64,000 nt of DNA from Psammoneis japonica (lineage: Eukaryota). A program made the position numbers and the translations under genes. A model generated the notes under the pieces. That model was not told the DNA's origin. It searched no databases and worked only from the letters and a program-made list of their open reading frames with translations. Below, piece by piece: positions 37,569 through 37,963 of the stretch (position 1 is its first letter; each line of letters opens with the position of its first letter). Location of the stretch: positions 1 through 64,000 of the forward strand of contig QPGO01000144.1 of assembly GCA_008632985.1 (NCBI GenBank). Direction: 5' to 3'.

Positions 37569-37963
37569 GACGCGTTCCAGACGTAGGTGGGAATCCGTGT
37601 GACATTGGGCCCGTAGACTTCTACGTGCGAGCTCCGTAGTAAAATTATATGGTAATTAAAATGTCAATGATCGCCAACAGAAAATGAGGCAATTTTGCGA
37701 ACGCACAAACTCGCCCATGATTGAAGTACATCATTTTTTACTTAGCCAGTTACATTCTTCAGACATTGAAGAATGTAACTGGCGCATTGTTGTTTCTAAA
37801 AATTTGTTATATAAAACGTCTGGGGCTTCGCAAAACAGCGAGTCTGGACAATTTTTTTTAACATCACACGTAGAAATCTACGTGCGAAACATACGACGGA
37901 TGATAAAAATTATCTGTGTCACACGTCAGTGCTACGAGCTCCCACCTAGGGCTGGAACGCGTC
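37569..37963 (+). mobile_element. MITE-B copy, least mutated (TpA-rich)
   Basis: GACGCGTTCCAGACGTAGGTGGGA / TCCCACCTAGGGCTGGAACGCGTC; TSD AGAG. Confidence 0.95.

What the first reader, a model, noticed from the sequence alone, without database searches (positions are those of the whole stretch)
37569..37963. MITE-B copies form a dose series of TpA loss
Seen: 37569 'cgTAgacttcTAcg..ccgTAgTAaaatTATAtggTAatt'; 45325 'cgTAgacttcTGcg..ccgCAgTAaaatCACAcggCAtt'; 47398 'cgCAgacttcTGcg..ccgCAgCAaaatCACAcggCAatt'. Sequence outside TA/CG sites is nearly unchanged. The TA-rich copies (37569, 31185) sit inside fully TA-stripped hosts. Inference: the process is cumulative, much faster than background substitution and probably ongoing, so it could serve as an insertion-age clock.
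Basis: partly seen in the sequence, partly recalled or inferred. Interest (0 to 1): 0.8.

Follow-up and report, generated by a model that had tools for sequence, protein, structure and literature searches.

The report
Switch-like TA erasure in diatom transposons
Copies of a small jumping element in a diatom-type genome show that a very fast mutation process rewrites TA to TG or CA in repeated DNA, but it appears to switch on patch by patch rather than tick steadily, so it is a poor clock for insertion age.

Summary
The three quoted copies match the sequence and belong to a 396-bp MITE family (217 pattern hits in a diatom-type genome). In stripped copies 74% of TpA sites became TpG or CpA, equally on both strands, against 0.1-0.7% change per base elsewhere. 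TA is the ancestral state.

The 'dose series/clock' reading is weak:
- Copies are bimodal: 2 of 87 keep 40-70% of their TA.
- TA-rich and TA-poor copies carry similar transversion loads (30/14,789 vs 24/16,559).
- Only stripped copies lose CpG (194/1,242 vs 3/1,112).
- TA-rich copies sit in CpG-poorer flanks.
- Two retrotransposon LTR pairs of equal age lost TA on one side only (14:0, 11:0).

Best reading: a tract-limited, repeat-targeted A-to-G (T-to-C) mutator that prefers TAY and switches on together with CpG decay. The enzyme is unknown and ongoing activity is not shown. 31185 belongs to a sister family and is half stripped. The closest known case is the 2026 Bigelowiella natans preprint (same spectrum, viral DNA). 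Four literature searches found no diatom report. This scan noted the same process on other pieces of this genome.

The parts
37569..37963 (+). MITE-B copy, TA-rich (4 of 30 TpA lost, 1 of 26 CpG). 12-bp perfect terminal inverted repeats, 4-bp target duplication AGAG, inserted in a stripped multicopy host repeat.
   Evidence: empty-site contigs of the host repeat
45326..45705 (+). MITE-B copy lacking its first 16 bp; stripped (20 of 30 TpA lost)
46817..47212 (-). MITE-B copy, stripped (23 of 31). Shares 18 bp of right flank with 47398, so probably an inverted duplicate; the two differ at 9 CA-versus-TG sites, so they were stripped independently.
47398..47793 (+). MITE-B copy, stripped (25 of 31), target duplication TGGA
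31185..31574 (.). Sister-family MITE (same ends, different middle); 17 of 30 TpA kept. Not MITE-B.
25421..25813 (.). Old related MITE copy, 3 TA left
46014..46581 (+). Third 4-bp-TSD MITE family, TA-rich copy (27 TA); sisters at 22144-22698 (10 TA) and 10637-11168 (7 TA); it sits inside a split, stripped copy of the same family (45845-48270)
35892..37208 (.). 1.3-kb TIR element with its own 4-bp target duplication. Versus its sister at 38737-40054: 23 CA-versus-TG sites, 8 one-sided TA losses, 19 CpG changes, 6 other transitions, 1 transversion in 1318 bp.
38737..40054 (.). Second copy of the 1.3-kb TIR element, opposite orientation
52800..55600 (.). Spared island with ordinary TA and CG content and sharp borders; holds a 608-codon PLAT-domain open frame (53080-54906, minus)

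Best explanation
A host process confined to repeat tracts converts TpA to TpG or CpA on either strand, preferring an A followed by a pyrimidine and largely sparing TTAA-like sites. SHOWN: spectrum, polarity, both-strand symmetry, context rule, confinement to repeats, a rate over 100-fold above background. SHOWN: loss is bimodal among MITE copies and tract-limited inside single insertions. INFERRED: each copy or tract is in an 'off' state (slow leak, about 5% of sites hit, no CpG decay) or an 'on' state (TpA runs to a context-set plateau and CpG decays), probably set by silent, CpG-methylated chromatin. A copy that lands in an old, CpG-poor tract tends to stay off. GUESSED: the chemistry is adenine deamination in DNA (A to I to G) by a TadA/ADAT-type enzyme, about 40% likely against a modified-base route. 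TA content therefore reports whether a tract was switched on, and only coarsely how old the insertion is.
For: Spectrum, 48 stripped main-subfamily copies: 542 TG, 553 CA, 378 TA, 5 CG, 6 other. Outgroup polarity: a stripped Copia RT has His (8) or Cys (3) at 11 of 13 conserved Tyr columns, while 120 of 120 homologues have at most 2. Bimodality: 2 of 87 copies between 0.4 and 0.7. Transversions: rich 30/14,789, poor 24/16,559, ratio 0.71 (95% CI 0.40-1.26), 15 private in each class. CpG lost 3/1,112 vs 194/1,242. CpG loss among the 48 stripped copies fits equal exposure (mean 4.04, variance 3.15; p 0.002 under evenly spread ages). Flank CpG median 23.7 vs 37.2 per kb (70 vs 81 copies, p 2.5e-5). 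Same-age controls: LTR pair on G000:C21 with a perfect 5-bp target duplication lost 14 TA in the 5' LTR and 0 in the 3' LTR; G000:C388 11 vs 0; inside C388, 34 of 46 TA lost, then 0 of 80. Context: A changed in 55% before C, 46% before T, 23% before G, 17% before A.
Against: No methylation data: the methylation link rests on CpG decay alone. CpG loss in TA-rich copies also fits a proportional clock (0.7 expected, 1 seen). Transversions date the lineage, not the last insertion, so copies that kept hopping would look old yet be freshly inserted. Half the transversions in TA-rich copies are shared with another copy (15 of 30). The error ceiling (3 transversions in 22,230 copy-bases) uses 4 low pairs picked from the near-identical pairs; others were higher (4/1,518, 4/2,398, 12/3,397, 7/644, 3/3,232, 4/3,234, 6/3,327), so that p value is optimistic. 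Only 2 LTR pairs were examined, both from one family, the first chosen because it looked odd; gene conversion or chimeric assembly is not excluded. The flank test was post hoc and flanks can include other MITEs. TA loss among stripped copies is itself graded (chi2 67, df 34, p 6e-4). No strand-coordinated clusters, which a processive single-strand deaminase might leave. Nothing ties the TadA-like gene to the process.
Confidence: 0.55

Rival explanations
1. First reader's clock with two transposition waves (or continual re-hopping of active copies): a steady mutator acts on all repeat DNA, TA-rich copies are simply recent insertions, and the gap reflects a pause in transposition.
For: TA-rich copies lie in stripped flanks with perfect target duplications. 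Their hits are Poisson-like (mean 1.25, variance 1.39) and fall on the same hot sites. The duplicate pair 46817/47398 lost 23 and 25 of 31. The most eroded copies also have the most CpG and other change.
Against: Equal private transversions in both classes; the same subfamilies occur in both classes; one-sided LTR loss and an internal boundary; flank CpG differs in the direction opposite to the simple expectation.
Confidence: 0.25
2. Past episodes: the mutator fired in one or a few bursts (RIP-like, perhaps at sexual reproduction) on repeats marked at that time and is now mostly idle; spared copies missed the burst.
For: Equal CpG exposure among stripped copies; bimodality; in Bigelowiella the process was active in only 11 of 15 lines.
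Against: Copia sisters with 1 transversion in 3,233 bp differ at 40 CA-versus-TG sites, so stripping also happened recently. TA-rich copies carry a low-level signal with the same context. No strand clusters.
Confidence: 0.15
3. Chemistry rival (compatible with the switch model): a modified base laid down at TpA in silent DNA (methylated adenine or oxidised thymine) decays or mispairs, as 5mC does at CpG; no editing enzyme is involved.
For: Independent, unclustered, strand-symmetric hits are what decay of a mark gives; TpA is palindromic like CpG.
Against: ApT, the usual eukaryotic 6mA context (recalled), is barely depleted (O/E 0.87 vs 0.94). No TET/JBP match in the genome, though that control rang nowhere. 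TpA is lost faster than CpG.
Confidence: 0.3
4. Error-prone repair synthesis by polymerase eta (A to G at TA and AA) around deaminated methyl-CpG.
For: TA loss co-occurs with CpG decay; other A/T transitions rise in stripped copies (52 vs 5) and track TA loss (rho 0.37).
Against: A to G after T is 733/1,982, after A only 17/2,460, no higher than after C (12/1,500). The WA signature is recalled, not looked up.
Confidence: 0.05
5. Reverse polarity (RIP-like CA/TG to TA, the TA-rich copies being derived) or an assembly artefact.
For: Diatoms carry DNMT4 enzymes related to fungal RID (PMC9998398 passages).
Against: TA-rich copies are near-identical while stripped copies split TG vs CA at the same site, and CG is seen at only 5 of 1,484 such sites. 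Conserved Tyr is replaced by His/Cys against 120 outside homologues. Run contigs match both flank pieces without a difference (this run may be the assembly's own source). Genes are spared.
Confidence: 0.01

Closest known systems
TpA hypermutation of integrated NCLDV and virophage DNA in Bigelowiella natans (Mettrop et al., bioRxiv 10.64898/2026.01.13.699255; parts 1-3 of 5 read, abstract to conclusion; supplements not seen)
   Same: TpA to TpG/CpA on both strands, far above background, confined to foreign or repeated DNA, patchy on/off behaviour, enzyme unknown (ADAT2 proposed there).
   Different: There it was measured per generation in two viral regions of a rhizarian with mild depletion (Rho 0.45). 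Here it is a diatom-type genome with TpA O/E about 0.05 across the repeat compartment, DNA transposons and Copia elements as targets, accompanying CpG decay and a TAY context rule. The preprint's main text has no occurrence of 'diatom' or 'CpG'.
Repeat-induced point mutation (RIP) of ascomycetes (features recalled; DNMT4/RID link from PMC9998398 passages)
   Same: Dinucleotide-specific transitions confined to repeats, with sharp borders and genes spared.
   Different: Opposite direction (RIP creates TpA); no strand coordination found; members of a duplicate pair can be hit one-sidedly.
5-methylcytosine decay at CpG in diatom transposon islands (DNMT5; PMC9998398 passages; maintenance-only Dnmt5 with rare gains, 10.1101/149385 abstract)
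   Same: Explains the CpG to TpG/CpA part and offers a heritable on/off state.
   Different: Cannot change TpA; methylation was not measured here.
TadA-derived adenine base editors (YAC preference of ABE3.1; PMC12703980 passage)
   Same: A to G with a pyrimidine-A-C preference resembling the TAC/TAT preference here.
   Different: Engineered enzymes; natural TadA/ADAT2 edit tRNA; resemblance only.

Membership tests
Bigelowiella-type TpA hypermutation | Transitions almost only at TpA, giving TpG and CpA | tested here: met
   1,095 of 1,106 changed TpA sites are TG or CA; A to G after T 37% vs 0.4-0.8% after other bases
Bigelowiella-type TpA hypermutation | About 1000-fold rate per generation | tested here: inconclusive
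   Over 100-fold by divergence, uncorrected for saturation; no per-generation rate
Bigelowiella-type TpA hypermutation | Confined to foreign or repeated DNA, host genes spared | tested here: met
   Two compartments, TpA O/E 0.05 vs 0.62 (tiles were sorted by that measure); viral targets not examined
Bigelowiella-type TpA hypermutation | G/C to A/T changes nearly absent in the affected regions (1 of 231 there) | tested here: not met
   CpG decay 194/1,242 accompanies TA loss; the time scales differ, so this may be a separate process
Bigelowiella-type TpA hypermutation | Active now, in a subset of lineages | not testable with these tools
   Only assembled contigs of one sample were available
Bigelowiella-type TpA hypermutation | Same enzyme | not testable with these tools
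   Unknown in both; a TadA/ADAT2-like gene is present
Fungal RIP | C to T at CpA/TpG, enriching TpA | tested here: not met
   Polarity reversed
Fungal RIP | Strand-coordinated changes along a repeat | tested here: not met
   Residual strand correlation -0.12 to 0.06 beyond 2 bp, p 0.15 or more; per-copy bias p 0.16 (35 copies)
Fungal RIP | RID/DNMT4 dependence, premeiotic timing | not testable with these tools
   5 near-full C5-methyltransferase domains in unstripped DNA; subtype not assigned
Polymerase-eta WA signature | A to G at both TA and AA | tested here: not met
   733/1,982 vs 17/2,460
MITE | Short, high-copy, terminal inverted repeats, target-site duplication | tested here: met
   396 bp, 217 pattern hits, perfect 4-bp duplication in 146 of 163 copies
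Sola2 superfamily | 4-bp, AT-rich target duplication (PMC3627910 passage) | tested here: inconclusive
   4 bp met, AT-richness not met
Sola2 superfamily | Partner encoding a Sola2 transposase | not tested
   Only terminal-repeat positions were looked at in 30 loci; no partner identified; superfamily unassigned

The most novel reading that the evidence does not exclude
Diatoms run a reverse-RIP genome defence: DNA adenine deamination at TAY, licensed tract by tract by CpG-methylated chromatin, shared in kind with a rhizarian alga, and self-limiting because eroded tracts lose the CpGs that license it and so become refuges for new transposon insertions.
Probability: 0.25. Interest if true: 0.9.

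Novelty: new variant of a known kind. Interest (0 to 1): 0.7.

Why it matters
Natural, targeted A-to-G mutagenesis of genomic DNA appears in one preprint among the papers my searches returned, for viral insertions in one alga. Here the same signature has remodelled the repeat compartment of a genome from another lineage. More than 200 near-identical MITE copies act as replicate reporters: they give the context rule, show an on/off state tied to CpG decay, and name matched on and off loci that long-read modification calling could test directly. TA loss also removes Tyr and TAA/TAG codons, so dead elements keep long open frames (most of 150 Copia RT hits have no stop). That can mislead gene annotation and repeat dating. 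A natural DNA adenine deaminase, if responsible, would interest base-editing work.

Tried and rejected
Processive, strand-coordinated bursts: not found beyond overlapping TATA (CC 17, GG 12, mixed 5 at one pair; other such pairs weaker); both-hit pairs matched expectation.

Inheritance of stripped patterns from stripped donors: at most minor (best pair p 0.05; spread p 0.007).

Hemizygosity of the 37569 insertion: laying run contigs showed empty-site joins, but the host repeat is multicopy, so this is inconclusive. No RNA holder listed.

Same erosion in other organisms: the 120 best homologues in each of two searches show no Tyr to His/Cys excess. These lists are ranked by score and mostly come from short metagenome contigs, so this is weak evidence either way.

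Autonomous partner of the MITE: not found. TET/JBP: no match, uninformative control. 19 of 20 window open frames had no Pfam match.

I first read 35892-40054 as one long-TIR element; it is two separate 1.3-kb elements.

Rows dropped: partial copies (138 to 124; copies under 340 bp or under 82% identity), 5 diagnostic positions, and homopolymer neighbourhoods for the transversion counts. About 20 listed stripped-type copies were not fetched. The 163-copy set is enriched by class-specific patterns and was not used for class frequencies.

Full report
1. Observation. The quoted strings are in the sequence. The window as a whole has TpA O/E 0.12, CpG 0.52 and CA/TG 1.6-1.7; only 52.8-55.6 kb, around a PLAT-domain open frame, is ordinary. 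The element is 395-396 bp with 12-bp perfect terminal repeats and a 4-bp target duplication of no fixed sequence (perfect in 146 of 163 copies). A TA-free 26-base pattern finds 217 copies in G000, a 91.4-Mb eukaryotic assembly. Window copies have lost 4/30 (37569), 20/30 (45326), 23/31 (46817) and 25/31 (47398) TpA sites, against 1-2 of about 270 other bases. The 31185 element shares only the ends and keeps 17 of 30 TA.

2. Host. G000 has ten near-full-length silicon-transporter matches, three of them in one 1,511-codon frame; concatenated transporters are described for pennate diatoms (PMC6114903 passages). The four species-named homologues among 120 hits of one of its Copia proteins are all diatoms. 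I treat it as a diatom. Eleven 10-kb samples show gene-rich DNA at TpA O/E about 0.5-0.7 and CpG about 1.0, abutting stripped DNA at about 0.05 and 0.05-0.7.

3. Spectrum and polarity. In 48 stripped copies of the main subfamily the 1,484 TpA sites read 378 TA, 542 TG, 553 CA, 5 CG and 6 other; in 43 TA-rich copies 1,252 TA, 29 TG, 34 CA and 11 other. TA-rich copies are nearly identical to each other, while stripped copies split between TG and CA at the same site, so TA is ancestral. An outside check agrees: a stripped Copia RT has His or Cys at 11 of 13 conserved Tyr columns, where 120 homologues have at most 2. Per base, 37% of TpA bases changed against 0.70% of other A/T (transitions), 0.29% of non-CpG G/C and 0.20% transversions (32 copies). 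Fitted site rates span about three orders of magnitude. The A is hit most when a pyrimidine follows, and TTAA-type sites survive genome-wide while ATAT and GTAT are essentially gone. A to G after A is no higher than after C, which excludes a polymerase-eta WA pattern.

4. Dose series or two states? In the unbiased sample of 87 full-length copies, 39 keep at least 80% of TA, 40 keep under 40%, 6 keep 70-80% and 2 lie between 40 and 70%. Fitted doses average about 0.02 for TA-rich copies and run 1.1-9 for stripped ones. The low peak partly reflects resistant sites. Real grading exists among stripped copies (p 6e-4), but it does not track CpG loss (rho 0.17) or transversions (rho 0.04); it tracks other A/T transitions (rho 0.37), as off-target hits would. 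Hits are not clustered and not strand-coordinated except at overlapping TATA.

5. Clock test. If TA-rich copies were young they should carry less background change. They do not: transversions 30/14,789 vs 24/16,559 (15 private in each), non-CpG G/C transitions 9 vs 12. A duplicated gene pair shows 0 transversions in 3,329 bp, with differences being mostly gaps, so these are probably not assembly errors; my pooled control was drawn from low pairs and is optimistic. CpG decay is all-or-none (3/1,112 vs 194/1,242) and equal among stripped copies. TA-rich copies lie in CpG-poorer flanks (23.7 vs 37.2 per kb) and more often on the large contigs (41 of 72 vs 34 of 93, p 0.012). The cleanest same-age control comes from two Copia insertions: their LTRs should be identical at insertion (established knowledge), yet they lost 14 vs 0 and 11 vs 0 TA, the 5' LTR each time. 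One has an internal boundary, 34 of 46 lost and then 0 of 80. Against this: transversions date lineages rather than last insertions; only two LTR pairs were examined; CpG loss in TA-rich copies also fits a proportional clock; the duplicate pair 46817/47398 is equally stripped; and the oldest copies of minor subfamilies give a real coarse correlation (rho 0.50). I put the switch model at 0.55, the two-wave clock at 0.25 and past bursts at 0.15.

6. Mechanism. Shown: targeted TpA transitions in repeat tracts, with a context rule and patchy onset. Inferred: onset is tied to silent, CpG-methylated chromatin. Diatom transposons are CG-methylated islands dependent on DNMT5a (PMC9998398 abstract and passages), and a fungal Dnmt5 maintains marks with rare gains (10.1101/149385 abstract), which would give a heritable on/off state. 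Guessed: deamination of adenine. The genome has nine deaminase-domain matches, one TadA/ADAT2-like (E 1e-30), and early TadA editors prefer YAC. Such genes are expected anyway for tRNA editing, and sequence alone cannot say whether the A or the opposite T is the lesion. Ongoing activity is untested; contigs of one sample were uninformative.

7. Comparison. The spectrum matches the Bigelowiella natans preprint, where 230 of 231 mutations in two viral regions were A/T to G/C at TpA, at about 1000 times background, in 11 of 15 lines. It works like RIP in reverse but fails RIP's defining direction and strand coordination. Searches returned no diatom report; the library lacks most subscription papers, and the preprint's supplements were not seen. 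Earlier notes of this scan describe the same process on other pieces of this genome; they are unchecked and I use them as leads only.

8. Verdict. The mutational process is real and striking, a new variant (diatom, transposons, compartment-wide, CpG-coupled) of a kind reported once. The proposed insertion-age clock is at best coarse: TA content mainly marks whether a tract was switched on. Interest 0.7.

Noticed in passing
L225, L226, L227 (G000:C301, C297): Copies of a C5 DNA-methyltransferase domain lie in TA-stripped DNA (O/E 0.07-0.10), possibly carried by a transposon.
   Followed up: no
L174:5803-6801 (minus): Stripped open frame with a weak Plavaka transposase match (E 7.5e-5, below cut-off).
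   Followed up: no
L215:313-1785 (minus): One open frame holds part of a deaminase domain followed by a 2OG-Fe(II) dioxygenase domain.
   Followed up: no
G000:C38:226311-230342: Three silicon-transporter domains in one 1,511-codon frame.
   Followed up: partly
L243/L299 (G000:C21) and L246/L298 (G000:C388): In both Copia copies the 5' part is stripped (38 CA-versus-TG sites in 2,089 bp between them) while RT, RNase H and the 3' LTR are spared; the boundaries differ by about 1.2 kb.
   Followed up: partly
window 46799-47811: Two MITE-B copies form an inverted duplication that includes 18 bp of flank, suggesting aberrant transposition.
   Followed up: partly
window 28222-31347: 1,041-codon open frame without a Pfam match that runs into the sister MITE at 31185; long frames are expected where TAA/TAG are erased.
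   Followed up: no
window 10637-48270: At least four families of non-autonomous elements (396, 390, 560 and 1,317 bp) share similar termini and 4-bp target duplications; their transposase is unidentified.
   Followed up: partly
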